Origin: Nitrospira bacterium HGW-Nitrospira-1
GTDB lineage: Bacteria; Nitrospirota; Thermodesulfovibrionia; Thermodesulfovibrionales; UBA6898
Assembly (NCBI GenBank): GCA_002839535.1
Contig: PGYF01000001.1
Coordinates: 2,352-48,395, forward strand
Direction of reading: 5' to 3'
DNA length: 46,044 nt
Part shown: positions 5,653-33,628 of the stretch, piece after piece
Layout of the letters: each line of letters opens with the position of its first letter
Position numbering within the stretch: the first letter of the stretch is position 1
Program-made: the position numbers and the translations under genes
The notes under the pieces: model-generated
What the model was told of the DNA's origin: nothing
Database searches by the model: none
What the model saw: the letters and a program-made list of their open reading frames with translations, nothing else

Positions 5653-5694
5653 ATCACCTTCTTACCGGTTCATGGGTAGTAAGGCCTCCTGTAT

Positions 5695-8185: not shown

Positions 8186-8187
8186 AA

Positions 8188-8430: not shown

Positions 8431-8447
8431 TTCCGTCTCAGGTGATA

Positions 8448-9518: not shown

Positions 9519-9521
9519 TTT

Positions 9522-10691: not shown

Positions 10692-10703
10692 ATCAGTTTC
10701 GCC

Positions 10704-11633: not shown

Positions 11634-11683
11634 TTTATAATTACTACAACCTGCGGTCTCTGTCGCAGGGGTTCTTTACTAAG

Positions 11684-13054: not shown

Positions 13055-13066
13055 ACGGTGGGTGTT

Positions 13067-13360
13067 TTAAATCCGGCCTTTCATATTCTCATAGACATGG
13101 TTTGCGAGCGTATCTATGGAATAAAAAATCTCTTTTCCTTTGTTCATGTCCTTTACTTCGATGCCGAAGTTGCGCTGCAAAAGCACGACTATTTCTACGG
13201 CATCAAGAGAATCGAGGCCAAGACCTTCACCGAATAAAATTTCATCGTCTTTGATGTCTTCAGGATTAATATCTTCGAGTGACAGGTCCCTTACAAGCAT
13301 CTCCTTTAAATCCTTCCTCAAGCGTGCCAATTCTTCCTCTTTGGTTTTTTCCATCATCAC
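13067..13360 (-). CDS. Acyl carrier protein (ACP-2)
   Basis: 97 aa, LGLDSLDAVEIVV motif. Confidence 0.85.
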   Translation of the reverse strand: MMMEKTKEEELARLRKDLKEMLVRDLSLEDINPEDIKDDEILFGEGLGLDSLDAVEIVVLLQRNFGIEVKDMNKGKEIFYSIDTLANHVYENMKGRI

Positions 13361-13388
13361 ACCCCTTGCATTTGATATTTCGATTTAA

Positions 13389-14153: not shown

Positions 14154-14170
14154 TCCTCACTCATTACGCA

Positions 14171-17983: not shown

Positions 17984-18657
17984 TTTGGATGTTTCCCTTT
18001 CTTTATCAATAAAAATTCTTCTGCCATTTCACGCAGGCTGCCCCCTTTTTCGATTACAGGCAGGGCTTCCGAAACATCGCACAACACCTGCTGCCCCAGC
18101 GCCGGTTCCTTCACTAAAACAATATATGCAGCCTGATCCTCCGTGTTCATCCCGGCCAGTACAGCCTGGGTCTCGCCAAGCATCAGCATTTCAGAGGCGG
18201 CCCTTACGACCGGCAGCAAAGAGGTCTGACCTGAACTCATATAAAATACAGGTCCCTGCAGGCCAAAATGTATCGCGGCCTCGCCAAGCGGGCTTGACGG
18301 AAGGGTATAAAGAAAAAGATTGCCCCGCGACAATTTCCTTCCGCTGTCTATATAGTCACGAAAATAATCAATGTCCGCCTGAAGAGAACCGTCTGCGTTC
18401 GTGCCGATAAGACCCATGTCTTTTTTCCGGTTGCTGTCATAAGCCTCTCCCGCGTCCTTCAGTGCAAGGGCAACAGCGTAACAGACAAGTTTTGAGACCT
18501 CATCAAGCCGTCCGAAATTCTTAAAGGTATAGGAAAATATATCCGTTCGTGAGAGCCCGTCAAAGGAGGTGAAATCCTTATAGCTGACAGGCATATTCTG
18601 CCTGACGCATATATATTCCTCTTTATTTATCCATCCCATGCCTCTAATAGCAATCAT
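17980..18657 (-). CDS. Short KS-N-terminal-like protein (ApeC-type chain length factor)
   Basis: 225 aa, 4-nt overlap with the preceding KS. The thiolase N-terminal-like sequence has no catalytic Cys motif, and the size and position match the ApeC partner of ApeO. Confidence 0.65.
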   Translation of the reverse strand: MIAIRGMGWINKEEYICVRQNMPVSYKDFTSFDGLSRTDIFSYTFKNFGRLDEVSKLVCYAVALALKDAGEAYDSNRKKDMGLIGTNADGSLQADIDYFRDYIDSGRKLSRGNLFLYTLPSSPLGEAAIHFGLQGPVFYMSSGQTSLLPVVRAASEMLMLGETQAVLAGMNTEDQAAYIVLVKEPALGQQVLCDVSEALPVIEKGGSLREMAEEFLLIKKGKHPK

Positions 18658-19772
18658 GCCAGCGCAAGGGCGGAATTGATGCCGCCAAAACCCGCATTAG
18701 TCATCAGCGCCACGGAATTTTTTTGGATGAGACGATACTCAGTAGACACCCATCCTTCTGCCTCAGTATCCGCTTCTTTAAGATTCACAGTTGGAGGAAT
18801 CTTCCCCTCTCTGAGTACCTTTAGCGCGATTATCATCTCGACAAGCCCTGCAGCTCCCATAGTGTGACCTATGCCGCCTTTTATGGAATAGACAGGTATT
18901 TTTTTATCTTTGAATACAGAGTTAAACGCCCTCATTTCCATGGCGTCATTATAGACCGTACCTGTTCCATGGGCCGAAATAAAGCCGACCTCGCTCTCGC
19001 TTGCCCGCGCTGAGGACAATGCCTTTCCTATGGCCATAATCAGCCCTTCACTCTGGCGGGAAGGTCCGGTCATGTGATTGGCGTCATCGCTCAACCCCCA
19101 GCCAAGGACTTCACCGAGGGGCTCCCGCTTCTCTTTCCCTGCCCTCTGTTCACTCATTAGTAACACAAATGCTGCCGCCTCTCCGAGACTCAAGCCGCTT
19201 CTGTTTTTGTCAAAAGGCATGGCAGAAATCTTTTCAAGCGCCATAAGAGAAGAAAATCCTGAATAGACAAACTCCGTCACGCTGTCACAGGCCACGACCA
19301 AAACGCAGTCGCTTCGGCCGCTCCGTATCATCGCAGCAGCCCTCGCTATGCCGACTGCGGATGAGGAGCAGGCGGCCGAGATAAGGGTCCCTTTGGTATT
19401 GACTCCTGCAAGCAGAGCGACCTTTTCAAGAAAGGCTGCCTGGCTGTTTTCGAACATGTGCTTCTGCCCCTGGAGTATCTTCTTCTCAAGAAGGTCTATC
19501 TCCCCTTTTGTCGTGGCGACTATAAGGTCGGCATCAGCAGGTATGGGTGCGGATTTTCCAAATAATGCAGTCAGCATCTGCATGACCAACGAATCTTTTT
19601 GATGATATTTCAGACCCTCTATTGTCGCCGCGTAATTGGACTGAAAGGCGCTCGTGTCAAATCTGTTCAGCTTCGAAATGGCAGTCTGACCGGCAAAGAG
19701 ATTGTCCCGGCAGGCATCAGTGCCCAGTCCGTAGGGCGTAAGCATTTCAGAGGAGACCGCCACGACTCTCAT
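18654..19772 (-). CDS. Beta-ketoacyl-ACP synthase (KS, ApeO-like)
   Basis: Motifs ISAACSSSAVG, SAHGTGT and GHTMGAAG. The start at ATG 19772 forms an ATGA overlap with the thioesterase stop and is preferred over the ORF-track start at 19814. Confidence 0.9.
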   Translation of the reverse strand: MRVVAVSSEMLTPYGLGTDACRDNLFAGQTAISKLNRFDTSAFQSNYAATIEGLKYHQKDSLVMQMLTALFGKSAPIPADADLIVATTKGEIDLLEKKILQGQKHMFENSQAAFLEKVALLAGVNTKGTLISAACSSSAVGIARAAAMIRSGRSDCVLVVACDSVTEFVYSGFSSLMALEKISAMPFDKNRSGLSLGEAAAFVLLMSEQRAGKEKREPLGEVLGWGLSDDANHMTGPSRQSEGLIMAIGKALSSARASESEVGFISAHGTGTVYNDAMEMRAFNSVFKDKKIPVYSIKGGIGHTMGAAGLVEMIIALKVLREGKIPPTVNLKEADTEAEGWVSTEYRLIQKNSVALMTNAGFGGINSALALA

Positions 19773-20254
19773 GCCCTGGGATGAAATTCGCCTGTCTTCC
19801 ATCGTTGCCGGCACCTCTCCAGTAATGCGGGAGAGACTATGCAGACCTCGCCGCTTTCTGCTTCAGTCAATAATTGGACGGTATATCCTGTTGCAGCAAG
19901 CGAACCGTCCTGTTTGTAAAGGCCGAACTCAGTATTGAGGCGGGCGCCCTCATGCCAGATCAGGGAGGCCCTGCTTCTAAACTCCTCGGCAAGACGGAGG
20001 GACTGGTAGTAGTCCACATGAAATTCAACAATCGGCGCCCGCAGGCCTGCCTCATGAAAGTCCTTGTATGAAAGTCCGCATATCCTGCCCAACTCCTCGG
20101 CAGCCTCCTCGAAGTACAGGGAATACCTTCCATGCCAGACAATACCCATGGCGTCAATCTCACTGAAATGCACCCGCCTCCAGACCTCTGCAACAACAGG
20201 CGCAGGCAGATCTTCGCCTCTTTCAAAATAGGTCTTTCTTTTCCTGTTTCTCAT
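19769..20254 (-). CDS. 4HBT/YbgC-type acyl-CoA/ACP thioesterase (ApeK-like)
   Basis: 161 aa. VHFSEIDAMGIVWHGRYSLYFEEA is typical of the hot-dog 4HBT family. Confidence 0.8.
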   Translation of the reverse strand: MRNRKRKTYFERGEDLPAPVVAEVWRRVHFSEIDAMGIVWHGRYSLYFEEAAEELGRICGLSYKDFHEAGLRAPIVEFHVDYYQSLRLAEEFRSRASLIWHEGARLNTEFGLYKQDGSLAATGYTVQLLTEAESGEVCIVSPALLERCRQRWKTGEFHPRA

Positions 20255-20631
20255 ATTTTCTTTTCCTGTATCAGCCCGCGTAATTTCAATTCCGCAACCG
20301 CCTGTCCAGCCCTACTGACAGAGGCCTTCACGACAAATGCTTCAGGTCTGTCATCTGCCCCAGAGCAGACGCAGAGGATTTCTTCAGACGGTAAAACCGG
20401 CGAAAAAAACTTCGCTGATATAATCTCTTTCAGCAAAAAGGCCTTGCCTGCTTTTTCGTACATTGAGACAACGCACTGTATCTGACACACGCCAGGCAGT
20501 ATCTTTTCAGATGGGAAATGTCCCTGAAAGCCGACAAACTCCTCAGGAAAGGTGAAGCACGCCTTCAATACACCAGCTGCCGAGGACTCCAAAGCCGTCA
20601 TATATTTCTCAACTTCTTTTTTGATGCTCAA
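20251..20631 (-). CDS. Hot-dog 3-hydroxyacyl-ACP dehydratase (ApeI/FabZ-like)
   Basis: 126 aa, with the FQGHFPSEKILPGV FabA/FabZ-type motif. Confidence 0.7.
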   Translation of the reverse strand: MSIKKEVEKYMTALESSAAGVLKACFTFPEEFVGFQGHFPSEKILPGVCQIQCVVSMYEKAGKAFLLKEIISAKFFSPVLPSEEILCVCSGADDRPEAFVVKASVSRAGQAVAELKLRGLIQEKKI

Positions 20632-21293
20632 TCCGAGACTTCCTTTAATCTTATGATCAATCTGTAGCCATACAGGTAATTCTTCAAAATCGTACCTCCG
20701 GGATATATTTTTCCGTCCCTGTTAAGATATTCGTAAAAAGAAACGCGCCACACAGGGCCTCCCTTCTCATAATATGTTTTTTCAGTCAGGTATTGGTCCG
20801 GTCCAGAAAAAACATATTCCGCAATGCCTTCCCCCTCCTGCTGCCTGAATATTACAGAGAATTTCTTCCTGTTGATTTCAGCCTCTTTGGAGGGGACCAG
20901 ATCAAAATAGACCCGTTTGATGTCTTCTCCTGCCATCTTTCCAAAATTGCCCTTTGCAGTAAATTCCGGCAGGGCAAAGAGGGTATTTATGCTGTCCTTA
21001 TCAATGGACAACTCGAAAAGTTTCACTCCCATCTGGTTTATAGATACAAGGTTGCAGGTCCTCTCAGCAGTATCAACATCAACAAAGCCTATGCCGGAAA
21101 AGGTCTTCCAATTATACTCAAAGACAAGGGTGTTCAGCAATAGGAAGCGCTCCGGAATACTCGCTTGAAACCGCTCCCTTACCATAGAGGGATCGACTGA
21201 GGAATAAGACTCATCAAGCGACTTCTTAAAAGGAATGCCCTCGCAGCCGATCATGAGGGCCAGCAGGCACAGAACGACTGCCGGCCGCTTCAT
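20628..21293 (-). CDS. Lipoprotein of unknown function (position of the DUF3261-type APE-cluster lipoprotein)
   Basis: Lipobox LALMIGC. About 220 aa, located between the MMPL exporter and the dehydratase as in APE clusters. The family assignment is by context only. Confidence 0.55.
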   Translation of the reverse strand: MKRPAVVLCLLALMIGCEGIPFKKSLDESYSSVDPSMVRERFQASIPERFLLLNTLVFEYNWKTFSGIGFVDVDTAERTCNLVSINQMGVKLFELSIDKDSINTLFALPEFTAKGNFGKMAGEDIKRVYFDLVPSKEAEINRKKFSVIFRQQEGEGIAEYVFSGPDQYLTEKTYYEKGGPVWRVSFYEYLNRDGKIYPGGTILKNYLYGYRLIIRLKEVSD

Positions 21294-23677
21294 GCGTCGC
21301 CTCCCTGTCGTTTCCGTGTTGAGAGCATACTACAAAACGAAGGCACCACAAACATGGCGGAAAGGTATCCCGAAGACATGCATATCACCATTGCCAGACC
21401 CGTAGAAAAAAAGGCCGGATGTTTGGCAAAAAGCAGTGCCCCTGCGCCAATAATATTGGTGGCGGCAGATAAAGACACGACAAACGCGGTCCCCATAGTC
21501 AGATTATTCCGGTAATCATATGTCCTGCCTATACCGTAGTCCACAATAACGCCGCTGGTAATGATCGCAGCCACGATGTTCACCACATTGAGAGGAAAGC
21601 CGAAGAACGACATAAGTCCGGCGAGCCATACCATTCCCGTTAAAACAGGTATAAGGGCTATGACGGTTTCTTTGATATTTCTGAAAAATATGTAAGTCAG
21701 AACAATATTAAATAAGATCGCAAGAGGGACAAGAAACTTCGCCTCCCTGGAGGTGAAACTGGATATGGATTCGGACAGGGCACGGCCTGAGACAACAAAT
21801 GTTCCTGGATGGACTCTGCTCAAGTCCGACATGGTTTTTACAAACTCTTTTTCATCAGGGAAAAAGGACAGTATCCTGCAGCCCTCCGGCCTTTGCTGCA
21901 CAAACCGCTCTTTTACATTCGCCATGAACTCGTTATCAGCGCTGCTAAAGTCAGCGACTTTAAATAAGTTGTCAAAAAATGGGGAAAAGGCATCTTTGGA
22001 AAAGTCATGCTTCGGCGATTCACTTTTAATAAGACCTCTAAGCCTCGCCTCCCTTCCCTGTCTCCAGAAGTTGTTCCAGTTGTCGACATTCTTTCTCCTT
22101 GTTTCCTCAGAAGACCAGAACATAGACAGGCTCAAAAAACGGTCTGTAGCAGCAACTTCTGCGACCCTTTGAAATATGGCGTCATTAGTCTTCATCGCCT
22201 CCTCAAAGGTCTTGCCCGTGACCACGAAAATCGCCTGGCCGGTATTTCCTCCCCAGACCGCATGAAAGTTTTTTTCTGCATTTACTACTTCAGGTCCGCT
22301 GCCATCGAGTTGTTTAATGTCGCTTTCAATCCTGACATTGAAAGACAGAACTATCGCAGCTAAGGTCAGGACAGCCCAGAGCCCGATACTTAAATTTCTG
22401 AGCCACGGGTTTCTTTCAAACCTGTCAACTATCCCCTGCGGTTTGATCTCGGGATATTTCTTCCATTGCAGGGTTTGGGGCAGAATAAAGAGCGCAAAAA
22501 AGAGAGAGATTACAATACACAGTATCGAAAAAAGGGCCAGTTGGTGGTATCCATGGATTTTGGAGAAGTAAAGCACATAAAATCCGAACACCGAAGTTAT
22601 CGCGTCAACGCACAAAAGCTTCGCAAGTTTCAGTGTCCGGGATGGGTCAACGCCTTTTCTGGATGAAACATATACCATGAGGCCGTAATCAACAGATATG
22701 CCTGCAATCGCAGTTCCGAACCCGATAACCAGATAGGAGAGCTTCCCGGCAAAAAACCAGGAAATATTGATAGCCAGAATGACCGCAAGAAGCGGAATAA
22801 TATATACAAAGACAACTCTCATGTCCCTGAATACAGCAAAAAAAAGCAGCAGAAAAACAATTGAAACCATGATCGAAAGCAGTCTGATATCACGCTTGAT
22901 CACGGTTTCGTTGCTGACAGTATGCCTGTGCCCGCTTACAACATCGGCAGAGACATAGCCAGGCAAACTCCCGAGCTTTTCGTAAAGCGCAGTCAAAAGC
23001 CTTTTGGAGTTTGGAGCGTCCGTCATCTTCACAGGCGTTTGAATTATCATCATGGCATGGCGGCCGTCGCTGCTGATAAAATGACCGTCCTCGACAGCAA
23101 CATCATATCCCATTGAAGCCGGAAGGGCCTTTAACTTATCCATAAGAAGGAAGTTTATGCCGAGAGGGTCTGCCCGAAACATCGGAGTCATAAAAACACT
23201 CTCAGGTTTCAAAGACTGTATATATATCCTCTTTAATTTTTCGGAAACTGAGGCAGTGTTTATCCGGAGGTCAATAGCGGTCAGGTCTTTTTCAGTAAGT
23301 ATCTGCGGGGCATAATTCAAAAAAAAACCGTCCATCACATTCGCAACCGAAAAACCGGTTGTCACCTTGCCAAATAATGGAGGAGAGAGGGAGGCAGCCA
23401 GCTGGTCGACTGCGTTAAACAGGTCCTTCTTGCCTGCTTCCTCGGATGTGAGTGAAAGAGAGACAACGATCTTGTCGGAGAGATTCGAGTCCCGCAGAAA
23501 ACTCATGCTGCGGTCAATGTCCCTGTCAGGGGGGAGCATCATATCAACATTACCGTCATACTGTACAAATAAAAGCCCGGCGACTGCTGCCAGTGTCAAA
23601 AATATTACGCCCACAAGCACAAACTTCCTGTTGCCCTTCATAAAACCGGAAAGCAGGTCAAAGTACCTGTCAAACAC
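21290..23677 (-). CDS. MMPL/RND-superfamily lipid exporter (ApeM-like)
   Basis: 795 aa. Two blocks of about 5-6 hydrophobic helices, each preceded by a large soluble loop, which is typical MMPL topology. Confidence 0.8.
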   Translation of the reverse strand: MFDRYFDLLSGFMKGNRKFVLVGVIFLTLAAVAGLLFVQYDGNVDMMLPPDRDIDRSMSFLRDSNLSDKIVVSLSLTSEEAGKKDLFNAVDQLAASLSPPLFGKVTTGFSVANVMDGFFLNYAPQILTEKDLTAIDLRINTASVSEKLKRIYIQSLKPESVFMTPMFRADPLGINFLLMDKLKALPASMGYDVAVEDGHFISSDGRHAMMIIQTPVKMTDAPNSKRLLTALYEKLGSLPGYVSADVVSGHRHTVSNETVIKRDIRLLSIMVSIVFLLLFFAVFRDMRVVFVYIIPLLAVILAINISWFFAGKLSYLVIGFGTAIAGISVDYGLMVYVSSRKGVDPSRTLKLAKLLCVDAITSVFGFYVLYFSKIHGYHQLALFSILCIVISLFFALFILPQTLQWKKYPEIKPQGIVDRFERNPWLRNLSIGLWAVLTLAAIVLSFNVRIESDIKQLDGSGPEVVNAEKNFHAVWGGNTGQAIFVVTGKTFEEAMKTNDAIFQRVAEVAATDRFLSLSMFWSSEETRRKNVDNWNNFWRQGREARLRGLIKSESPKHDFSKDAFSPFFDNLFKVADFSSADNEFMANVKERFVQQRPEGCRILSFFPDEKEFVKTMSDLSRVHPGTFVVSGRALSESISSFTSREAKFLVPLAILFNIVLTYIFFRNIKETVIALIPVLTGMVWLAGLMSFFGFPLNVVNIVAAIITSGVIVDYGIGRTYDYRNNLTMGTAFVVSLSAATNIIGAGALLFAKHPAFFSTGLAMVICMSSGYLSAMFVVPSFCSMLSTRKRQGGDA

Positions 23678-24383
23678 GCCTTACCTCAAAAAAGCTGTTT
23701 TCAACAGGCGCGTCCAGCAGGGTATTGGAAAAGTCCAGCGTGGTCGTATCGCCGCTCATCTCATGAATTTTTATCTTCTTCAGATATTTTTCATCATCCC
23801 TGAATGTTATCGTGATGCTCCTGATCATCTTCCGCGCAATGTTCTTCTCATTCGGAACAAACTCAATAATCAGGGGATGCTGCTGCAACACGCTGACAGT
23901 GTTGTCGGCCATAAGAGCGCCGTATTCCCCTGAAAACCATACAGACAACTGATTGACGACATTCTTGAATATCGGATTTTTTGAAAGAGAGAGCTCCTGT
24001 ACCTGATTGGTATCTTCGTCCCACTGCCGGATCGCCTTATCAGTGATGACCACTGAATATTTAACCGGCTTGTCTACATGCCAGGCCAGCCTGTTGGGCT
24101 TTTGCATATAGATACGGCCCCGGAGCACGATCTTTTTCTTGAACATCGCCAGGTCTTTCTCCTGGACAAAGTCCGTCTTCAGGCTCTTGAAGCCGGAAAC
24201 CTTTTCCCCTATTGTGCGAAGCAGTTCCTGTATTTCAACTTCTTTGGCAGATAGCCCATTCTTTCCATCCGGGCCGCCCTTTGTCTCGCCGCCGGCCCGG
24301 GGGGCGATGACCGCTGGAGAAAACAGGGAAAGCACAATCAAAAGTACGATAGTTTTTTTCATTTCCATTTTATTTTTCACCAT
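23670..24383 (-). CDS. LolA-like lipoprotein-carrier-fold periplasmic protein (ApeL-like)
   Basis: Signal peptide (MKKTIVLLIVLSLFSPAVIA) and a F-x-Q-E-K motif region typical of LolA-like proteins. The likely start is ATG 24362-24368 rather than 24383. Confidence 0.65.
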   Translation of the reverse strand: MVKNKMEMKKTIVLLIVLSLFSPAVIAPRAGGETKGGPDGKNGLSAKEVEIQELLRTIGEKVSGFKSLKTDFVQEKDLAMFKKKIVLRGRIYMQKPNRLAWHVDKPVKYSVVITDKAIRQWDEDTNQVQELSLSKNPIFKNVVNQLSVWFSGEYGALMADNTVSVLQQHPLIIEFVPNEKNIARKMIRSITITFRDDEKYLKKIKIHEMSGDTTTLDFSNTLLDAPVENSFFEVRRV

Positions 24384-25842
24384 GCCAGACCTTTATTTCA
24401 CCTGTGGCTATCATGTCCTTTCCCTTGAAAATCTCCCCCTTGATTACACCGAATTCCCCATATTTTGCGACTTTATAGGTATAAACACTCAGCGTATCGC
24501 CAACTCCAGCGCTCCCCATAATCTCCAGATTCTTTACGCCCAGAAGAAAACCCTTTGAGCCGTTTTTACCGTTCCCTAAATTCTTGAACCCATTATGTGC
24601 TGCAATCGCCTGTGAAATAAGTTCCGGATAATAGGCCTCCTCAAGCCTGCCTTCCTCAGAGACAAATATCGTGTCTTTTGCTATAACAACTTCTGCTGTG
24701 GATTCCCTTTCCCCCACCCTGAGCAGTTTATTGACTATACGCATGGGAGGTTTATGAGGCACTAATTGGGAGGCGTCAATCGGCAGCCTGAAAATATCGT
24801 CCTGTTTGTCCTGATTCCTCCAGCACAGGGGATCAGAAGCCAGATAGTCTCCGGTCAACTGGAAGGCCGCCCCACGGCAGCCGTAACACCTGTCCAGACT
24901 GGAACATTCGCTGCAGGGCCCCTTGATAGTCTGTTTATAGTTCTTCAGGTCCTGGATTACCTCGCTGTCCAGAAGAATGTCCGCCAGTTTCCTTTGCCTG
25001 ATGTTCCCGACAGGTATGGTAACCCCCACGCAGGGCTGGACATCACCGTATGCATTGATTGCGCAGGAGAATTGGTGCCGCAGGCATTCACCGCCAACTA
25101 AAGGCGGCTGCGGTTCCCAGTGACGTCCGTATTTCAGCCTGTCTATCTCAGCTATCCTGCGGAAAAATGCATGGACACGCTCTGTATCAACATACAGCAG
25201 GTCATTTTTTTTGGCATTGCCCTGCGGCGTGATCATTTCAAAATAAGGGGTGACGCCCTGGTCCTTCAGCCACTCCCACATCCGTTCGAGTTCATCGATG
25301 TTCTGGTTGCAGATAATAGTGCTGATACCAAGGGGCGCCTCAGAGGGATAGCCAGCAGCCTTCAGATTACAGAAGGCCTCATGTATCTGGAAATAGGCGC
25401 CTTTTTTCCCTGAGAGCATGTCCTGCATATTCTCATCAAAGGTGTTCATTTTCAGCACCACCGCAACCCCGTGGCCGCGCAATATCCGCGCAGTTCCTGC
25501 GTCAATGCCTGTTCCGTTGGTGAAGAGTTCTATATGCAGGCCCTCTGCTTTTATGAATGCAAGCATCTCAAGGATATGAGGGTATATCATCGGTTCTCCG
25601 CCCAATATTATGATCTTTCTCGCCCCCAGGTCCTTAGCCTGCAGTATCACATCCCTGATTTCATCTGCTGTCATCTCACCCTCGTAATTAAGATCGTCTT
25701 TTGCGTAGCAGTAGATGCAGTTAAAATTACACCGGCGCGAAAATTCAACCTCCACTGAAAGCAGCCTGCCGCTGCCTGCCGCCTCGGCGATATCCTCCGG
25801 TGAAAATTCAGCGCCGTACATGCGACTTCTACAACTCTCCAT
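24370..25842 (-). CDS. Radical SAM / SPASM-domain protein fused to a C-terminal hot-dog (ApeP/FabA-like dehydratase) domain
   Basis: CNFNCIYC (CX3CX2C) and GGEPMIYP. Seven-Cys SPASM pattern (C-X12-G-X4-C, then CSECSSLDRCYGC, then DPLC). The C-terminal ~135 aa start VPHKPPMRIVNKLL and have a hot-dog-like pattern (nt ~24373-24789). Confidence 0.85.
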   Translation of the reverse strand: MESCRSRMYGAEFSPEDIAEAAGSGRLLSVEVEFSRRCNFNCIYCYAKDDLNYEGEMTADEIRDVILQAKDLGARKIIILGGEPMIYPHILEMLAFIKAEGLHIELFTNGTGIDAGTARILRGHGVAVVLKMNTFDENMQDMLSGKKGAYFQIHEAFCNLKAAGYPSEAPLGISTIICNQNIDELERMWEWLKDQGVTPYFEMITPQGNAKKNDLLYVDTERVHAFFRRIAEIDRLKYGRHWEPQPPLVGGECLRHQFSCAINAYGDVQPCVGVTIPVGNIRQRKLADILLDSEVIQDLKNYKQTIKGPCSECSSLDRCYGCRGAAFQLTGDYLASDPLCWRNQDKQDDIFRLPIDASQLVPHKPPMRIVNKLLRVGERESTAEVVIAKDTIFVSEEGRLEEAYYPELISQAIAAHNGFKNLGNGKNGSKGFLLGVKNLEIMGSAGVGDTLSVYTYKVAKYGEFGVIKGEIFKGKDMIATGEIKVWHGEK

Positions 25843-27139
25843 TTTTCTCTCTCCTGTCTATTAATCTGACTAATTTCCGCGAATTCCCCGAATACACCTG
25901 TGCCCTCACCTGCTCCTCGCTTGCGATGACCACCTCAGGACAGACCCGCAAACGGGCCTGGAGTTCAGTTGCGATACTCTCTGCTGAACAGGCGCTGTTA
26001 CCGACCGATACACATATCCTTATCTGATCGGAAAGATCGTAATCACTGGACAGCGTGATGTAATATTCACTGATGCCGGGGATCTCAGCCAGCACAGAGT
26101 AAATGGCCTGCGGATAGAGGGTTGTGCCCCGGTATTTGATCATCTGTTTTTTTCTTCCGATAATAGGCCCAAGCCGGGGAGAAAAACGGCCGCAGCTGCA
26201 AGGCTCATCAATAAGGAAACTCACATCGCCGGTCTTGAACCTCAGCAGAGGCATGCCCTCTATGGAGAGCGGCGTCACCACAACCTCTCCTGTTTTTCCG
26301 CAGGGCAGGACCTTGCCCATATCATCAACGATCTCAACGACAGCAAGGTCAGGATGGAGATGCCCACCGGCCTGCATTTCACATTCACAAAAAGACGTGA
26401 TGGTTTCGGAAGAGGCATAGGTCGAGAAAACCTTAGCTCCCCATATGTCCTCGAGGTGCGCGCCCATTTTCAGAAGAGACATATCTTTGTCCCTTATTGG
26501 TTCGCCGATACAAATCAATTTCGATACGCCGATTCCCCGTGGCTCAATACCTTTTGAAACAAGATACTGCCCGAGTTTAAGTAAAAAAGAAGGGACCCCG
26601 ACGATGACAGTGGGGTTGACCCTCAGCATGGTCTCAAGATGGCTCGCAACACTGTTGAGGCCGTTTCTCACAGCAGCCGCGCCCAGGTTTCTCGTCCCCA
26701 GAAAATAGGCCAGGCCGGCGATAAAACACCGGTCGAGGGTGCAGGTAAGAAGTGCTATATCCTCTGCCGAAATACCGCAGCCCGCCAGAGAGATTTCCTC
26801 ATTGTAGGCGAGTCTTTTGAGGTCGTTTTCCGTATACATAATCCTGGTAGGTGCGCCGGTAGTCCCGGAGGAAAAAACAATATCAACTATTTTCGAAAAA
26901 GGGACTGCAAGAAAATCATCGCAACATTTTTCAAAGTGCGCTTTTTCGGTAAACGGCAGTTCGTACAGGTGGTCAAGCCCGGTATTATCTATGTCAATGC
27001 CGCTCAGCGTCCTTCTGTAATATGGGGAATTACTGACGAGGCAGCGCAGATGGTCACTAAAAAGTTTTTCCTGGGCGTCCTTGATCTCCTCCGTGCCTGA
27101 AAATTCCAGCCCCCTGTATAAAGGAGAGAATTTCTTCAT
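25829..27139 (-). CDS. Phenylacetate-CoA ligase (PaaK)/F390-synthetase-like adenylate-forming enzyme
   Basis: 436 aa. The FSSGTTGAPTRIMYTENDL motif and overall PaaK-like length. Confidence 0.8.
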   Translation of the reverse strand: MKKFSPLYRGLEFSGTEEIKDAQEKLFSDHLRCLVSNSPYYRRTLSGIDIDNTGLDHLYELPFTEKAHFEKCCDDFLAVPFSKIVDIVFSSGTTGAPTRIMYTENDLKRLAYNEEISLAGCGISAEDIALLTCTLDRCFIAGLAYFLGTRNLGAAAVRNGLNSVASHLETMLRVNPTVIVGVPSFLLKLGQYLVSKGIEPRGIGVSKLICIGEPIRDKDMSLLKMGAHLEDIWGAKVFSTYASSETITSFCECEMQAGGHLHPDLAVVEIVDDMGKVLPCGKTGEVVVTPLSIEGMPLLRFKTGDVSFLIDEPCSCGRFSPRLGPIIGRKKQMIKYRGTTLYPQAIYSVLAEIPGISEYYITLSSDYDLSDQIRICVSVGNSACSAESIATELQARLRVCPEVVIASEEQVRAQVYSGNSRKLVRLIDRREKNGEL

Positions 27140-27888: not shown

Positions 27889-28155
27889 TCAGGAAGCCTT
27901 CCCGCCACCGGCATTTTTTATCGTGGAAATAAACTGATACACGTCCTGCAGTGTGCGTATGTCCCGGATTTTCTCCTCGTTCCTGATATTCACTCCAAAG
28001 CTCTTCTGGAGCGCAACGACCAGATCCACTATATCAAGGCTGTCCAGTCCCAGGTCGTTAAAGATATGCGCGCCCGGCTGCAATCTTTCCTTTTCTATCT
28101 CAAAGGACTCCTCAAACACCTTATTGGTCTTCTCTATAATCTCCTCTTCAGTCAT
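27889..28155 (-). CDS. Acyl carrier protein (ACP-3)
   Basis: 88 aa, LGLDSLDIVDLVV motif. Confidence 0.85.
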   Translation of the reverse strand: MTEEEIIEKTNKVFEESFEIEKERLQPGAHIFNDLGLDSLDIVDLVVALQKSFGVNIRNEEKIRDIRTLQDVYQFISTIKNAGGGKAS

Positions 28156-28177: not shown

Positions 28178-29404
28178 TCATACCTTCCTGCAGACCAGCG
28201 CCGCATTTATGCCGCCGAAGGCAAAACAGTTTTTCAATATCACCTCTATGTTTTTTGTGACCAAAGCAGTGACATGATTTATTCCAGCGCAGTCAGGGCT
28301 TATGTTTTCAAGATTCAGCGTCGGATAAATAACGCCTCTTTGCATCATGCGCAACGAGGCGATAAGCTCTATCGCGCCCGAGGCCCCAAGTGTATGACCG
28401 ATATAGCCCTTGAGACTGCTGACAGGGACAGAAGCGCCGAAGACCTCTTTGATGGCCTCAGCCTCCTCCTTGTCTCCCTGCAGGGTCGCTGTTGCGTGCG
28501 CATTTATGTAGTCGATCTCTCCGGGGACAATGCCGGCGTCGCGCAACGCCTGTTTCATGCATCGTACCATAGACTCCCTGTTGGATTGACTGACGTGCGA
28601 ACCGTTTCCATTGGTATTATAACCCGTAATCTCCGCGTAAATCCTGGCATTCCTTTTGATCGCCCGTTCGTATTTTTCTAAAACAACAACGCCGCTCCCC
28701 TCACCGCAGACAAGACCGTCCCGGTCCCGGTCAAAAGGCCTCGGCGTCTTTGAGGGGGCATGATTAAAGCCTGCTGAAGTGGCCATAAGCACATCGAAAG
28801 ACCCTGTGACAGTCGGATGCACCTCTTCAGAGCCTCCGCAGAGCATGACGTCCTGTCTCCCTAACCTCACAAGGTCATATCCTGCGCCGATCGCCTGAAG
28901 AGACGAAGCGCAGGCAGCAGAGGTGGCCATGATATATCCTGTCAGTTCAAGGTACTGTGCAACATTCGCTGCCGCAGTGTGGGACATGCACTGAAAAAAC
29001 ATCGAGGAATTGAGTTGGCTGATGTCCTTATGAGGCAGCATGATTTCAAAGGCGTCGTTGATACTCTTTGCGCTGCCCATGGTAGAGCCGATTGCACACC
29101 CCATTTTCATCTGTGGGACCATAGCAGGGTCTATGCCCGCATCAACGAGCGCCTGCTCGGCGGCCTGGGCTGAAAAAATGCTCATACGCCCCATGAAACG
29201 CCTTTTCTGGCGGGGAATTGCCCGTTCGTCTTTTATCTCTGCAGTTGCTGCGACATGGCTCCTGAGACCGATATATTGGTCCCAGCCTTCCATGAAGCGC
29301 ACCGCGCTCCTCCCCTGCTCAATCCCTGCCATGAGAGCTTCCACATCACAGCCGAAAGGGGAGACCGCGCCTGCTCCTGTAATGACAACCCTGTTTGATT
29401 TCAT
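28178..29404 (-). CDS. Beta-ketoacyl-ACP synthase (KS, ApeR/FabB-F-like)
   Basis: 408 aa. Motifs TSAACASSLQAIG, NAHATAT and GHTLGASG. Confidence 0.9.
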   Translation of the reverse strand: MKSNRVVITGAGAVSPFGCDVEALMAGIEQGRSAVRFMEGWDQYIGLRSHVAATAEIKDERAIPRQKRRFMGRMSIFSAQAAEQALVDAGIDPAMVPQMKMGCAIGSTMGSAKSINDAFEIMLPHKDISQLNSSMFFQCMSHTAAANVAQYLELTGYIMATSAACASSLQAIGAGYDLVRLGRQDVMLCGGSEEVHPTVTGSFDVLMATSAGFNHAPSKTPRPFDRDRDGLVCGEGSGVVVLEKYERAIKRNARIYAEITGYNTNGNGSHVSQSNRESMVRCMKQALRDAGIVPGEIDYINAHATATLQGDKEEAEAIKEVFGASVPVSSLKGYIGHTLGASGAIELIASLRMMQRGVIYPTLNLENISPDCAGINHVTALVTKNIEVILKNCFAFGGINAALVCRKV

Positions 29405-30897
29405 AGATGACGGCCCACAAAGCCTGCGTATTTTTCTTCTTTAATAATAGACCTGCCCACAAAAAAGGACGACATCATCGCGCCTATTATTCCCGGCAGG
29501 AGAGAACTTTGGCCGGCCGCAAATACGTTTCGCAGGGGAAGTTTCCCAAACAGATTATACTGCCCGACCTTCTGTTTTATGCCGTATGCAGACCCGTCGG
29601 GACTGTGCAGATAATCCCTGAAGGTAAGTACTGAGGCCGCATCAACAACCCTGAGACAGTCTCTGTATTTTGGCAGGACACTGAATATACGTTCCCTGAT
29701 GCTCTCAATCCTCTGAAGTTTATAATCCAGATAGGCCTGCGGTCTCAGACCTCTCCTGGTGTCTTTCCATACTTCAACGTGTTCAAAAAAAGAGGTTTCG
29801 AGGATATTGATAATGTGTTTCCTCGTCCCGTTTACTTCCTCTACAGACCTGAGAAGCACCAAGGCGCCCAGCCCCTCGTATCCGGGATCAAGGATCTGGT
29901 TTATGTCAGTGTGCGGGAAAATAGAGACAATCGAATTATCTATTCCCTCATCGCCGCAGCCGGGATCCAGGGTTGCGAACAAGGCAAAAAATCCGGTAGA
30001 AGCCTCGAAAGAAGAGACACGGCTGATAAAGGCCTTGCTCAATACCCCCTCAGGGATGAGTTTCAAAATCTCTTTTGGGTGGATCGTAAAGACGCAATTT
30101 TCGCACTCAATCTCTTCCCCTGTGTTCAGTATGAACCTGCCCACGCGGTTGTCCCTGATATCAGCCATTTCCGCAATAGTGGTCCCGCAGGAGACCTCTA
30201 TGTCAAAGTCCTGAAACCGTTTTTGAAACGCCTCTATAAGCGCATTGCCGCCGCCATGAATGCGCGCAACAGACTCATAAAGACCGAGGCAGATCCTGCT
30301 GTGATTGGCGAAGGTGATCTCCTGTGGTTTGACTCCGTAGCACATGGCAAAGCCGGACAGCAGGGCCTTCAAAACTTTATTGCCTGTCAGACCATTTAAC
30401 ACTTCATCCAGGGTCATAAAATCTTCATCTATGTGGCCCTGATTCATTGCCGGATTGCGAAGGTTCATCGAAGGAGTTTGCGCACACACCTGAATTACTT
30501 TGTCGAAATATTTGTCTATAGCAGCCGCCTCGGACGGGAAATAACCCTTTAACCTTTCCCGCAACCCTGGAAAGCCGTAGGGAATTTTATACAGCCTGTT
30601 TTCGGATTCCAGAAAAAAAGAGTTGGCGTTGTCCTCAGGAAGAAAAACCGGCTCAATGGAATCATAGATCCCCAGCGCGGACAGCATCTCATAAAGCAAC
30701 CCGCCCTTTTGCAGCCCGCCGGTAAAGTGAAAACCAGTATCAAAGGGAACGCCGTCTCTCGTAAAAACTGAAAGAGACCCTCCGATGCGGTGGTTTTTTT
30801 CGAGCAATAAAACTCTGCGGCCGTTCATCGCAAGGAAAAGGGTCATGGCAAGTCCGCTTACGCCGCTTCCGACAACTACATCGTCATATTTCTTCAT
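29401..30897 (-). CDS. Phytoene desaturase (CrtI)-like NAD(P)/FAD-dependent oxidoreductase
   Basis: 498 aa. YDDVVVGSGVSGLAMTLFLAMNGRRVLLLEKNHRIGG dinucleotide fold, and a length typical of the amine-oxidase/CrtI family. Confidence 0.75.
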   Translation of the reverse strand: MKKYDDVVVGSGVSGLAMTLFLAMNGRRVLLLEKNHRIGGSLSVFTRDGVPFDTGFHFTGGLQKGGLLYEMLSALGIYDSIEPVFLPEDNANSFFLESENRLYKIPYGFPGLRERLKGYFPSEAAAIDKYFDKVIQVCAQTPSMNLRNPAMNQGHIDEDFMTLDEVLNGLTGNKVLKALLSGFAMCYGVKPQEITFANHSRICLGLYESVARIHGGGNALIEAFQKRFQDFDIEVSCGTTIAEMADIRDNRVGRFILNTGEEIECENCVFTIHPKEILKLIPEGVLSKAFISRVSSFEASTGFFALFATLDPGCGDEGIDNSIVSIFPHTDINQILDPGYEGLGALVLLRSVEEVNGTRKHIINILETSFFEHVEVWKDTRRGLRPQAYLDYKLQRIESIRERIFSVLPKYRDCLRVVDAASVLTFRDYLHSPDGSAYGIKQKVGQYNLFGKLPLRNVFAAGQSSLLPGIIGAMMSSFFVGRSIIKEEKYAGFVGRHL

Positions 30898-30953
30898 TCC
30901 ACTTAATAACCGGAAGGGGCCGCAGACAATGGACCGGAAAGGTCCAAAACAAC

Positions 30954-31688
30954 CTACATTGACAGGCCTCCGTTGACAGCTATAACCTCCCCGTGAATAT
31001 ACATATTTTTTTCAGCACACAAAAAATTGACCACAGCTGCAACATCTTCCGTATTGCCCAGCCTGCCAAGGGGAATGAGGGGTAGTACCCGTTCCCCTGG
31101 AATGCCTTCCGTCATTTCAGTCTCGATAAACCCCGGGGCAACAACGTTTACCGCAATGTTCCTTTTACCCACCTCGCGCGCCAAGGCCTTGGCCGCCCCT
31201 ATCAAACCCGCCTTTGAAGCGGAATAATTGACCTGGCCCGCCTGTCCGATCTGTCCCGAGGTCGAAGATACAACAACAATACGCCCCTCTTTGGCCCTTA
31301 ACATCGAAAACAGGACCGTACGGGTTACATTAAAAAAACCGTCCAGATTAGTGGAAAGGACGGAATCCCATTCCTCTTTTGTCATCCACATCAAAAGATT
31401 ATCTTTTCTGATTCCGGCGTTATAAACAAGTGCGTAAGGCGCCGATTCTTCGGTCAGTTTTCCCAGCGCCGCTACGGTTTCCTCATAATTTGAGATATCG
31501 AAACAGAGCAGTTTGCACATCATCCCCTTTTTTTCTATATCAGCCTTTACGGACTCAGCGGCAGGGTGATTGCTCTTGTAAGTCAGCCATATATCAAAGC
31601 CGGAATCAGCCAGCCGTAAAGCAACTGCACGCCCGATACCACGACTTCCCCCGATTATCAATGCGATTTTTTTTGTCTGATTTTCCAT
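30954..31688 (-). CDS. fabG: 3-oxoacyl-ACP reductase (SDR, ApeQ/FabG-like); first gene of the operon
   Basis: 244 aa. GGSRGIGRAVA cofactor motif, YSASKAG catalytic motif and the SDR length. Confidence 0.9.
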   Translation of the reverse strand: MENQTKKIALIIGGSRGIGRAVALRLADSGFDIWLTYKSNHPAAESVKADIEKKGMMCKLLCFDISNYEETVAALGKLTEESAPYALVYNAGIRKDNLLMWMTKEEWDSVLSTNLDGFFNVTRTVLFSMLRAKEGRIVVVSSTSGQIGQAGQVNYSASKAGLIGAAKALAREVGKRNIAVNVVAPGFIETEMTEGIPGERVLPLIPLGRLGNTEDVAAVVNFLCAEKNMYIHGEVIAVNGGLSM

Positions 31689-33535: not shown

Positions 33536-33628
33536 ATGAAAATCTTAACATTAAACCTGTTGAGTGTCAATATTGGGCTGGTTGAAAAAGCTGAGAATTT
33601 TCCTCATCCACACATAAAGGGGAGGAAA

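What the first reader, a model, noticed from the sequence alone, without database searches (positions are those of the whole stretch)
24370..25842. Radical SAM + SPASM domain covalently fused to an ApeP/FabA-like hot-dog dehydratase domain
A single 490-aa ORF carries three parts. First, CNFNCIYC (CX3CX2C) and GGEP radical SAM motifs. Second, a complete seven-Cys SPASM pattern (C-X12-G-X4-C, CSECSSLDRCYGC, DPLC). Third, a C-terminal ~135-aa region (nt ~24373-24789) that begins VPHKPPMRIVNKLL and looks like the hot-dog dehydratase partner of APE systems. In characterised APE systems the two hot-dog proteins (ApeI and ApeP) act together on ACP-bound 3-hydroxyacyl intermediates. Here the ApeI-like protein is separate (20251-20631), while the ApeP-like module is tethered to a SPASM radical enzyme. 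SPASM enzymes are mainly known from peptide and protein maturation. A fusion to a FAS/PKS dehydratase module implies radical chemistry performed directly on the hydroxyacyl- or enoyl-ACP during elongation. I do not know of a characterised example of this architecture.
Basis: partly seen in the sequence, partly recalled or inferred. Interest (0 to 1): 0.8.

Follow-up and report, generated by a model that had tools for sequence, protein, structure and literature searches.

The report
Radical SAM enzyme fused to half-dehydratase
One gene in a lipid/polyketide-like cluster of an anaerobic bacterium joins an iron-sulfur radical enzyme to one half of a fatty-acid-type dehydratase; the fusion is real, conserved in hundreds of anaerobes and uncharacterised, and it suggests radical chemistry on carrier-protein-bound lipid chains.

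Summary
ORF 24370-25842 (-) encodes 490 aa in three parts. The first is a radical SAM core (CX3CX2C, GGEP). The second is a SPASM domain with eight invariant Cys. The third is a C-terminal hot-dog domain whose best solved relative is ApeP of the ApeI:P dehydratase (PDB 6QSR chain B).

The fusion is not a frameshift. More than 120 full-length homologues were listed, and at least 412 species genomes across about eight anaerobic phyla encode a relative. The best 80 are all full length and sit in the same conserved cluster.

The hot-dog domain keeps the FabZ-type Glu (E407xxxQ) but lacks the catalytic His. The separate ApeI-like protein (20251-20631) keeps the His (GHFP) but lacks the Glu. The fusion is therefore probably the Glu-donating half of a heterodimeric dehydratase with one composite active site. 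That would hold the radical module next to ACP-bound intermediates.

The cluster is the "ladderane-type" lipid cluster of Rattray 2009; its B12-radical-SAM marker TIGR04072 scores above cutoff. Kuste3343 of Kuenenia is a homologue of the radical part and probably of the whole protein. I found no paper that describes the fusion or its chemistry. The radical reaction itself remains unknown.

The parts
24370..25842 (-). Whole fusion gene, 490 aa (radical SAM + SPASM + ApeP-like hot-dog). Its start overlaps the stop of the upstream AMP-ligase gene by 14 nt. Its stop overlaps the LolA-like gene start by 14 nt.
   Evidence: Start M1 is supported because the N-terminal MxxC..YGAEFS is conserved in homologues (C4 in at least 90%). 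The public gene call (P0001) starts at M8.
25270..25749 (-). Radical SAM core, residues 32-191. It includes CX3CX2C (C38, C42, C45; nt 25708-25731) and GGEP 81-84.
   Evidence: Pfam PF04055 E 3e-25. The motifs are invariant in 38 homologues. PDB relatives are SkfB, PqqE, MoaA, viperin and anSME.
24823..25086 (-). SPASM auxiliary-cluster domain, residues 253-340, with eight invariant Cys (253, 260, 271, 310, 313, 319, 322, 340).
   Evidence: Pfam PF13186 34.5 bits, above the 21.5 cutoff. Invariant columns.
24373..24786 (-). ApeP-type hot-dog domain, residues 353-490. It begins only 13 residues after the last SPASM Cys. P362, H363, P366, M367, E407 and Q411 are invariant. There is no His at the FabZ GHFP position.
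   Evidence: Profile hit to 6qsr_B E 6.7e-13. Foldseek 6qsr_B and FabZ matches. Alignments. It is the only ApeP-like domain in the window.
20251..20631 (-). ApeI-like hot-dog protein, 126 aa, the predicted partner. The GHFP His38 is invariant in 50 sequences (window plus 49 orthologues). Gln sits at the FabZ Glu position.
   Evidence: Pfam ApeI-like and FabA weak hits. PDB 6qsr_A and FabZ alignments. Conservation. Alignment.
27889..28155 (-). Acyl carrier protein with a DSL motif, two genes upstream of the fusion. Two further ACPs lie at about 13070-13354 and about 8191-8430.
   Evidence: Pfam PP-binding. Motif scan.
25829..27139 (-). FlxY/PaaK-like AMP ligase (ApeH-like starter activation), immediately upstream.
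   Evidence: Pfam. NCBIfam FlxY 448 bits, below the 520 cutoff.
17980..19814 (-). KS (18654-19814) and CLF-like (17980-18657) pair, comparable to ApeO/ApeC.
   Evidence: Pfam. Synteny.
15342..17983 (-). Two B12-binding radical SAM genes. The one at 15342-16715 is the TIGR04072 'rSAM_ladder_B12' equivalog and the Kuste3342 homologue.
   Evidence: NCBIfam 623.6 bits, above the 360 cutoff. Kuste3342 N-terminus 43% identical. Both CX3CX2C motifs are intact.
20628..24383 (-). Export module: LolA-like (23670-24383), MMPL/RND-like (21290-23677) and DUF3261 (20628-21293), comparable to ApeL/M/N.
   Evidence: Pfam. NCBIfam HpnN-like weak hit.
28178..31688 (-). KS (28178-29404), phytoene-desaturase-like FAD oxidase (29401-30897) and KR/FabG (30954-31688). 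This is the upstream end of the conserved cluster.
   Evidence: Pfam. Synteny in 80 loci.
2814..15418 (-). Further cluster genes. GT2+DUF2062, LpxL-like acyltransferase, an ACP and a HemN/ChuW-like radical SAM. Polysaccharide deacetylase, a second KS/CLF pair, another ACP and an unknown 369-aa protein. FAD oxidoreductase, a second AMP ligase and a third B12 radical SAM.
   Evidence: Pfam. NCBIfam.

Best explanation
The protein is a bifunctional component of an anaerobe-specific, APE-like type II FAS/PKS lipid pathway.

(1) Dehydratase half. The C-terminal domain is the cluster's only ApeP-type subunit. It supplies the active-site Glu (E407) and pairs with the separately encoded ApeI-like protein, which supplies the His (H38 of GHFP). 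Together they form a heterodimeric 3-hydroxyacyl-ACP dehydratase with a single composite active site. This enzyme serves the KS/CLF-KR-DH elongation cycle.

(2) Radical module. The N-terminal radical SAM/SPASM module is thereby held on that dehydratase. [quoted passage not shown] Like other SPASM enzymes, it probably passes the second electron out through its two auxiliary clusters. The net result would be an oxygen-independent two-electron oxidation, such as desaturation or ring/C-C bond closure.

Shown here: the domain identities, the complementary catalytic residues, the conservation and the synteny. Inferred: heterodimer formation, the ACP-bound substrate and the type of radical reaction.
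For: The radical module looks competent. CX3CX2C, GGEP and eight SPASM Cys are invariant in 38 homologues of 60-88% identity.

The two hot-dog proteins carry complementary half-sites:
- The fusion's hot-dog domain aligns E407xxxQ411 with the FabZ/ApeP ExxxQ motif. It has a deletion where FabZ carries GHFP.
- The ApeI-like protein has GHFP with an invariant His in 50 sequences (window plus 49 orthologues), and Gln at the Glu position in 78%.
- The His/Glu interface active site of FabZ is established knowledge (described in PMC10139942).

Independent evidence for ApeP:ApeI pairing:
- Natural ApeP-ApeI didomain proteins exist. One example is P0184, whose halves match the fusion's hot-dog domain (32%, E 7e-30) and the window ApeI-like protein (39%, E 5e-11).
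- Standalone ApeP genes lie next to ApeI genes in L083 and L084.
- ApeI:P is a solved heterocomplex (6QSR).

The hot-dog domain fills the ApeP role in this cluster:
- No other ApeP-like domain is present in the window.
- In a related cluster without radical SAM genes, a standalone ApeP occupies exactly the same slot between the PlsC-type acyltransferase and LolA (L081).

The fusion is conserved:
- At least 412 species genomes encode a relative, and the best 80 loci are all full length with the same gene order.
- Apparent 'split' copies are broken assemblies.

Variants P0135 and P0180 have lost the CX3CX2C motif but keep the hot-dog domain with its Glu. The hot-dog function therefore does not depend on the radical chemistry.

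Only 13 residues separate the last auxiliary-cluster Cys from the ApeP N-terminal LP..LPH strand, and this segment is conserved (I350, L353, P354).
Against: - No biochemical data exist for any member of the family.
- The Pfam ApeP-like score of the single sequence is below the curated cutoff (16.5 against 27 bits).
- The AlphaFold2 model is only moderately confident (pLDDT 64, pTM 0.56). It gives no reliable information on how the two halves pack.
- Heterodimer formation with the ApeI-like protein was not modelled.
- Nothing identifies the atom attacked by the radical. The nearest curated radical SAM families (AhbD, NirJ, PqqE) score far below their cutoffs and act on tetrapyrroles or peptides.
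- The fusion could simply secure stoichiometry or co-localisation while the radical domain works on a released lipid or on the starter acid.
- An invariant extra Cys (C178) could mean redox-neutral chemistry, such as isomerisation with hydrogen return, rather than oxidation.
Confidence: 0.55

Rival explanations
1. Co-localisation only. The hot-dog domain is the working ApeP half of the dehydratase. The radical SAM/SPASM domain acts on something other than the ACP-bound elongation intermediate. Candidates are the starter acid activated by the adjacent FlxY-like ligase, the finished lipid after transfer by the PlsC/LpxL-type acyltransferases, or a head group. Under this reading the fusion only ensures 1:1 expression.
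For: The gene sits between the starter ligase and the export genes. The cluster carries four other radical SAM genes and two FAD oxidoreductases that could carry out chain chemistry. P0135 fuses a PlsC acyltransferase to the same protein, which points to the late, lipid-transfer end of the pathway.
Against: The junction is very short and conserved: 13 residues between the last SPASM Cys and the hot-dog start. No split forms were found among the 80 loci or among the representatives examined. This argues for functional coupling that is tighter than co-expression.
Confidence: 0.2
2. Substrate-recognition domain. The hot-dog domain is catalytically dead and works like the RRE domain of peptide-modifying SPASM enzymes. 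It would bind the acyl chain or ACP and hand it to the radical domain. Dehydration would be done by other enzymes.
For: The domain lacks the FabZ catalytic His. The protein has no RRE/PqqD-like domain and only about 30 residues before the radical SAM core, so some other recognition element is needed.
Against: Lack of His is normal for the ApeP clade, including standalone ApeP and the N-halves of ApeP-ApeI fusions. The Glu (E407) and Q411 are invariant. The ApeI-like protein lacks the Glu and so cannot form a complete site as a homodimer. No other dehydratase is encoded in the cluster. Variants that have lost the radical SAM Cys motif still keep the hot-dog domain.
Confidence: 0.15
3. Artefact. 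Two adjacent genes (a radical SAM/SPASM gene and apeP) were merged by a sequencing error or a missed stop near nt 24790.
For: None beyond the general possibility. Reads could not be inspected.
Against: The same uninterrupted architecture appears in more than 120 listed proteins from independent assemblies and in 80 of 80 best genome loci from about eight phyla. The junction residues are conserved. The only 'split' copies examined were caused by scaffold gaps.
Confidence: 0.01

Closest known systems
ApeP of the ApeI:ApeP dehydratase heterocomplex, aryl polyene pathway of Xenorhabdus doucetiae (PDB 6QSR chain B)
   Same: It is the best solved relative of residues 353-490 (E 6.7e-13 by profile, 2.2e-6 by single sequence; Foldseek TM 0.76). 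It shares the LPHxxPM N-terminal motif and the ExxxQ central-helix motif. A separate ApeI-like partner is encoded nearby, and the cluster setting is the same: KS/CLF, KR, thioesterase, LolA/MMPL/DUF3261.
   Different: ApeP is a free-standing protein of about 150-180 aa. Here it is the C-terminal domain of a radical SAM/SPASM enzyme. Sequence identity is low (about 21% in the Foldseek alignment). The Pfam ApeP-like model scores below its cutoff. The host cluster carries radical SAM and FAD enzymes, which are absent from the E. coli APE gene table in PMC8253772.
SPASM-domain radical SAM enzymes (SkfB 6EFN, PqqE 6C8V, SuiB 5V1Q, anSME 4K36; AhbD/NirJ by NCBIfam)
   Same: CX3CX2C core plus a C-terminal Cys-rich domain for two auxiliary [4Fe-4S] clusters. 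These are the best sequence and fold matches for residues 1-345.
   Different: All curated family scores are far below cutoff (for example AhbD 141 against 500 bits). There is no RRE domain, no precursor peptide gene and no tetrapyrrole context. A hot-dog domain is attached instead.
Kuste3343 ('SAM radical enzyme') of the Kuenenia stuttgartiensis kuste3335-3352 cluster and the syntenic Desulfotalea/Geobacter clusters (Rattray 2009, PMC2649909; Javidpour 2016, PMC4790861)
   Same: The first 128 aa of Kuste3343 are 40.5% identical to residues 13-127 of the window protein (E 5e-30). Its C-terminus, read from the cloning primer, is (W)HCEKNPK*, which resembles VWHGEK* here. Kuste3342 matches the neighbouring B12 radical SAM at 43%. 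The TIGR04072 'rSAM_ladder_B12' marker is met in the window.
   Different: Only the ends of Kuste3343 could be read, so its hot-dog domain is inferred rather than seen. Gene order in Kuenenia differs. The window organism is a Nitrospirota-like bacterium (best locus 89% identical), and non-anammox bacteria are not known to make ladderanes (PMC9902471).
Jaw5/C10P-type radical SAM enzymes that act iteratively with a polyketide synthase (reviewed in PMC13459092)
   Same: They offer a functional analogy: a radical SAM enzyme modifies a growing, carrier-bound enoyl chain between elongation rounds.
   Different: Jaw5 is a HemN-like class C enzyme, is free-standing and installs cyclopropanes using a second SAM. 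The protein here is a SPASM enzyme covalently joined to a dehydratase subunit. A separate HemN/ChuW-like gene does exist in this cluster (11684-13054).

Membership tests
Radical SAM superfamily (PF04055) | CX3CX2C motif for the SAM-binding [4Fe-4S] cluster, and a Pfam score above the gathering cutoff | tested here: met
   C38, C42 and C45 are invariant. Score 89.7 bits against 29.5.
Radical SAM superfamily (PF04055) | GGE-type SAM-binding motif | tested here: met
   G81-G82-E83-P84 are invariant in 38 homologues.
SPASM subfamily (PF13186) | C-terminal CX9-15GX4C ... CX2CX5CX2-3C ... C pattern, and a Pfam score above cutoff | tested here: met
   C253-X12-G266-X4-C271; C310, C313, C319, C322; C340; plus C260. 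All are invariant. Score 34.5 bits against 21.5.
SPASM subfamily (PF13186) | Binds two auxiliary [4Fe-4S] clusters | not testable with these tools
   This needs reconstitution with EPR, Mössbauer or crystallography.
ApeP-like dehydratase subunit (PF22817) | Pfam model score above the gathering cutoff | tested here: not met
   16.5 bits against 27 for this sequence. The precomputed Pfam list includes PF22817 for the listed homologues.
ApeP-like dehydratase subunit (PF22817) | Homology to the solved ApeP and a hot-dog fold | tested here: met
   The family profile hits 6qsr_B at E 6.7e-13. The single sequence hits at 2.2e-6. Foldseek gives E 9e-10, TM 0.76. The model has the central helix and the strands that wrap it.
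ApeP-like dehydratase subunit (PF22817) | Central-helix acidic residue (ExxxQ) and absence of the GHFP His, complemented by an ApeI-type partner that carries the His | tested here: met
   E407 and Q411 are invariant. Alignment with ApeP, FabZ, standalone ApeP and ApeP-ApeI fusions. ApeI-like H38 is invariant and Gln sits at the Glu position.
ApeP-like dehydratase subunit (PF22817) | Forms a heterodimer with ApeI and dehydrates 3-hydroxyacyl-ACP | not testable with these tools
   Supported only indirectly, by natural ApeP-ApeI fusions and gene adjacency.
Aryl polyene (APE) type gene cluster | KS/CLF pair, KR, ApeI and ApeP dehydratases, thioesterase, ACPs, starter AMP ligase, LolA/MMPL/DUF3261 export set, acyl- and glycosyltransferases | tested here: met
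   All were found by Pfam or NCBIfam in the window. They were compared with the E. coli APE gene table in PMC8253772.
Aryl polyene (APE) type gene cluster | The product is an aryl polyene | not testable with these tools
   No product is known. The additional FAD desaturase-like and radical SAM genes suggest a different or further modified product.
'Ladderane-type' lipid cluster (Rattray 2009; NCBIfam TIGR04072 marker) | B12-binding radical SAM equivalog TIGR04072 above cutoff | tested here: met
   The product of 15342-16715 scores 623.6 bits against 360.
'Ladderane-type' lipid cluster (Rattray 2009; NCBIfam TIGR04072 marker) | Homology of the fusion to Kuste3343 over its full length | tested here: inconclusive
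   Only the first 128 aa (40.5% identity, E 5e-30) and the last 7-8 residues were available.
AhbD / NirJ / PqqE equivalogs (NCBIfam) | Score above the curated equivalog cutoff | tested here: not met
   AhbD 141 against 500; NirJ2 125 against 500; PqqE 101 against 381.
RiPP-maturing SPASM enzymes | RRE/PqqD-like recognition domain or an adjacent precursor peptide gene | tested here: not met
   No such Pfam hit was found, and only about 30 residues precede the core. The neighbouring genes overlap the ORF and encode a ligase and LolA.

The most novel reading that the evidence does not exclude
The fusion is the long-sought enzyme that performs oxygen-independent radical chemistry on the growing ACP-bound chain once per elongation round. 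This corresponds to the 'type c' scheme of Speth and Dietl, in which a radical SAM enzyme attacks the 2-enoyl-ACP just made by a dehydratase. In the many non-anammox anaerobes that carry it, the cluster would then make an unknown class of cyclised or otherwise cross-linked polyunsaturated envelope lipids. Its Kuenenia orthologue Kuste3343 would take part in ladderane ring formation.
Probability: 0.1. Interest if true: 0.9.

Novelty: new variant of a known kind. Interest (0 to 1): 0.62.

Why it matters
[quoted passage not shown] A SPASM enzyme welded to a subunit of a type II FAS/PKS dehydratase, and conserved across about eight anaerobic phyla, is strong genomic evidence that such chemistry exists and is widespread.

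- **An experimental route.** The half-dehydratase reading gives a concrete plan. The protein should be co-expressed with its ApeI-like partner and the cluster ACPs. This may also explain why Kuste3343, expressed with Kuste3342 only, was never detected in E. coli (PMC4790861).

- **An unexplained class of gene clusters.** Genome-mining surveys report 'ladderane' clusters in non-anammox bacteria with no known product (PMC9902471). This protein is a handle on that class.

Tried and rejected
- **Frameshift or missed stop.** Rejected because of cross-genome conservation. Apparently standalone hot-dog proteins at 52% identity (P0123, P0125) turned out to be fused genes broken by a scaffold gap or a contig end.

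- **A second ApeP or another dehydratase in the window.** An hmmsearch with the family's hot-dog profile against all six-frame ORFs found only the fusion itself.

- **Natural split forms (radical SAM/SPASM next to a separate ApeP).** None was found in the 80 loci or the contexts inspected. Related clusters carry either a standalone ApeP with no SPASM gene (L081) or an ApeP-ApeI fusion with B12 radical SAM genes but no SPASM gene (L085). This search was not exhaustive.

- **Confirming canonical anammox orthologues by name.** A homologue search seeded with a Brocadiaceae-MAG copy returned no protein named Kuenenia, Brocadia or Scalindua among the best 120. The link to Kuste3343 instead came from the truncated gene sequence and the primer in a paper supplement.

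- **Assigning the radical domain to a curated family.** All NCBIfam equivalogs are far below cutoff.

- **Literature.** Searches for radical SAM + SPASM/hot-dog + aryl polyene/ACP/Geobacter found nothing relevant.

- **The C31:8/C31:9 hydrocarbons of Desulfotalea (PMC2649909).** Considered as the cluster's product but not adopted. The link was already judged weak by that paper's reviewers. From my own recollection, these hydrocarbons are now attributed to PUFA synthase plus OleABCD.

- **Co-folding with the ApeI-like protein.** Not attempted.
Full report
**What is there.**
- The minus-strand ORF 24370-25842 encodes 490 aa.
- Pfam finds Radical_SAM at residues 32-191 (E 3e-25) and SPASM at 253-313 (34.5 bits against a 21.5 cutoff). 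It also gives a sub-threshold ApeP-like hit at 357-440 (16.5 bits against 27).
- No curated NCBIfam family claims the protein. The best matches are AhbD, NirJ and PqqE, all far below their cutoffs.
- I aligned 38 full-length homologues of 60-88% identity. The invariant features are:
  - the CX3CX2C motif (C38, C42, C45);
  - GGEP at 81-84;
  - eight SPASM cysteines (253, 260, 271, 310, 313, 319, 322, 340);
  - in the C-terminal part, P362, H363, P366, M367, E407 and Q411.
- Two further cysteines are conserved: C4 in at least 90% of sequences, and C178 in all.

**The C-terminal domain is an ApeP-type hot-dog domain.**
- A profile of the 38 sequences hits PDB 6qsr_B over positions 354-491 with E 6.7e-13. 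Foldseek titles this entry the ApeI:P heterocomplex of Xenorhabdus doucetiae.
- The isolated domain hits the same chain at E 2.2e-6, against 0.18 for the best FabZ.
- The AlphaFold2 model has moderate overall confidence (pLDDT 64). Confidence is low around the Fe-S loops and mostly higher (block means about 70-90) across the hot-dog core. It shows a long helix at 402-420 wrapped by four long strands.
- Foldseek returns 6qsr_B (E 9e-10, TM 0.76) and many FabZ structures (TM about 0.8). It also returns SkfB, SuiB, anSME and PqqE for the N-terminal part.

**The fusion is real and widespread.**
- The homologue search listed more than 120 proteins of 483-506 aa. All carry the three Pfam domains. 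Most are from Nitrospirota MAGs and are named only 'radical SAM protein'.
- A scan of one genome per species found at least 412 genomes that encode a relative.
- The best 80 all cover residues about 1-490. They come from Nitrospirota/Thermodesulfovibrionia, Geobacterales, Desulfobacteraceae, Omnitrophota, Verrucomicrobiota/Kiritimatiellia, Lentisphaerae and Planctomycetota, including Brocadiaceae MAGs.
- Hot-dog proteins that looked standalone at 52% identity were fused genes broken by a scaffold gap or a contig end.
- The best locus (L001, an uncultured Nitrospirae MAG) is 89% identical, which suggests the window's origin.

**Genomic setting.**
- All genes from about 2814 to 31688 lie on the minus strand and form an APE-like type II FAS/PKS cluster.
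- Read in the direction of transcription, the core is:
  - KR, a phytoene-desaturase-like FAD oxidase, KS and an ACP;
  - a PlsC-type acyltransferase, a FlxY/PaaK-like AMP ligase, then the fusion;
  - LolA-like, MMPL-like and DUF3261 proteins;
  - an ApeI-like protein, a 4HBT thioesterase, KS and a CLF-like protein;
  - two B12 radical SAM genes, GT2+DUF2062 and an LpxL-like acyltransferase.
- Beyond these lie an ACP, a HemN/ChuW-like radical SAM, a polysaccharide deacetylase, a second KS/CLF pair, another ACP and an unknown protein. An FAD oxidoreductase, a second AMP ligase and a third B12 radical SAM follow.
- tblastn of the window proteins against the 80 loci shows the same order from KR to GT2 in every phylum, wherever the contig is long enough.

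**The hot-dog domain is half a dehydratase.**
- In FabZ the active site lies at the dimer interface. It uses a conserved His and a conserved Glu or Asp (PMC10139942).
- I aligned the fusion domain with standalone ApeP proteins, ApeP-ApeI fusions, Xenorhabdus ApeP, FabZ sequences and the window ApeI-like protein.
- ApeP-type sequences, including the fusion, have a deletion where FabZ carries GHFP. They keep the ExxxQ Glu, which is E407 here.
- ApeI-type sequences keep the GHFP His but lack the Glu. In the window protein that position is Gln.
- Across 50 ApeI-like sequences (window plus 49 orthologues), the His is invariant and the Glu position is Gln in 78%.
- The two proteins are therefore complementary, which predicts one composite active site per heterodimer. 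This is an inference from alignment, not a demonstration.

**Independent support for the pairing and for the domain's role.**
- The scan of 1.84 billion cluster representatives with the domain gave 1043 hits at E up to 0.001. They include fused proteins, true standalone ApeP-like proteins (at most 46% identity) and didomain proteins of about 300 aa.
- One didomain protein, P0184, is ApeP-like followed by ApeI-like. Its halves match the fusion's domain (32%, E 7e-30) and the window ApeI-like protein (39%, E 5e-11).
- Standalone ApeP genes sit directly upstream of ApeI genes in L083 and L084.
- In L081, a related cluster without radical SAM genes, a standalone ApeP occupies exactly the slot of the fusion, between the PlsC-type acyltransferase and LolA.
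- The window has no other ApeP-like domain.
- Two rare variants have lost the CX3CX2C motif but keep the hot-dog domain and its Glu (P0135, which also has a PlsC domain fused at its N-terminus, and P0180). The hot-dog function therefore does not depend on radical chemistry. This argues against a pure substrate-delivery role.

**What the radical module may do.**
- All cofactor motifs are invariant, so the domain is probably active.
- It has no RRE domain and no precursor peptide gene nearby.
- From my own knowledge, SPASM enzymes with fully ligated auxiliary clusters (anSME, AhbD, the peptide cross-linkers) typically combine hydrogen abstraction with a one-electron oxidation through the auxiliary clusters.
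- The last auxiliary-cluster Cys (C340) is only 13 residues from the first hot-dog strand, and the junction is conserved.
- My best reading is hydrogen abstraction from the ACP-tethered chain at or near the dehydratase. The net result would be an oxygen-independent oxidation (desaturation or ring/C-C closure) in organisms that are strict anaerobes.
- The invariant C178 leaves room for redox-neutral isomerisation instead.
- This step is inference only.

**Relation to what is known.**
- The cluster is the one Rattray et al. (PMC2649909) described in Kuenenia stuttgartiensis (kuste3335-3352), Desulfotalea psychrophila, Geobacter and Pelobacter. Genome-mining surveys report clusters annotated as 'ladderane' in many non-anammox phyla, with no known product (PMC9902471).
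- The window's B12 radical SAM at 15342-16715 meets the NCBIfam equivalog TIGR04072 'rSAM_ladder_B12' (623.6 bits against 360).
- The supplement of Javidpour et al. (PMC4790861) holds the first about 386 nt of each synthetic gene.
  - The Kuste3343 fragment is 40.5% identical to residues 13-127 of the fusion (E 5e-30).
  - Kuste3342 matches the TIGR04072 gene at 43%.
  - The reverse cloning primer gives the Kuste3343 C-terminus as (W)HCEKNPK*, which resembles VWHGEK* here.
- Kuste3343 is therefore probably a full-length orthologue. The middle of the protein could not be read.
- That study expressed Kuste3342 and Kuste3343 together and detected neither protein.
- None of the papers I searched or read mentions a hot-dog domain on this enzyme.

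**Verdict.**
- The fusion is a conserved, uncharacterised enzyme family. It is present in databases under generic names and belongs to a cluster type that has been an open problem since 2009.
- The new points here are:
  - the half-site complementarity with the ApeI-like protein;
  - the slot equivalence with standalone ApeP;
  - the link to Kuste3343.
- The chemistry of the radical domain remains unknown.

Noticed in passing
window 11684-13054 (-): A HemN/ChuW-like class C radical SAM gene lies inside the same cluster (best NCBIfam match ChuW/HutW, 183 bits, below cutoff). Enzymes of this class include the Jaw5-type cyclopropanases that act on polyketide chains. It could modify the chain by methylation or cyclopropanation.
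   Followed up: partly
window 2814-4226, 15342-16715, 16712-17983 (-): The cluster holds three B12-binding radical SAM genes, which makes five radical SAM genes in one lipid cluster. The gene at 15342-16715 is a TIGR04072 equivalog. The two adjacent genes at 15342-17983 have intact CX3CX2C motifs, conserved in 41 orthologues for the one at 16712-17983. The gene at 2814-4226 is HpnJ/BchE-like, below cutoff.
   Followed up: partly
window 24370-25842 (-), residues C4 and C178: Two conserved cysteines lie outside the cluster-binding motifs: C4 in at least 90% of homologues and C178 in all, at the end of a core beta strand. C178 could be a hydrogen-atom donor, as in radical SAM epimerases. Its position relative to the active site was not checked.
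   Followed up: no
proteins P0135, P0180, P0164 (relatives): Variant architectures exist. P0135 is a PlsC acyltransferase, a degenerate radical SAM (no CX3CX2C), SPASM and a hot-dog domain (717 aa). P0180 has a degenerate radical SAM plus a hot-dog domain (526 aa). P0164 is the fusion read through into LolA (720 aa), which may be an assembly or annotation artefact.
   Followed up: partly
locus L085 (metagenome contig, 1-20942): A related cluster has an ApeP-ApeI didomain dehydratase, an aromatic ammonia-lyase (probable aryl starter supply), KS/CLF and three B12-domain genes, but no SPASM enzyme. The B12 radical SAM genes and the SPASM fusion are therefore not strictly linked.
   Followed up: partly
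window 7076-8185 (-): A 369-aa protein inside the cluster has no Pfam or NCBIfam match at all.
   Followed up: no
window 8448-10691 (-) and 10704-11633 (-): A second KS/CLF-like pair and a polysaccharide deacetylase-like gene. The latter recalls Kuste3351, which is described as similar to a polysaccharide deacetylase in PMC2649909.
   Followed up: no
window 25829-25842 and 24370-24383: The fusion gene overlaps the upstream ligase gene and the downstream LolA-like gene by 14 nt each. Many other cluster genes overlap by 4 nt. This suggests translational coupling along one long operon.
   Followed up: no
window 31856-36524: Outside the cluster lie housekeeping-type genes: NadA, an SLT transglycosylase, a small radical SAM gene at 33629-34267, an EamA transporter and MgsA on the plus strand. 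This places the upstream cluster boundary near 31700.
   Followed up: partly
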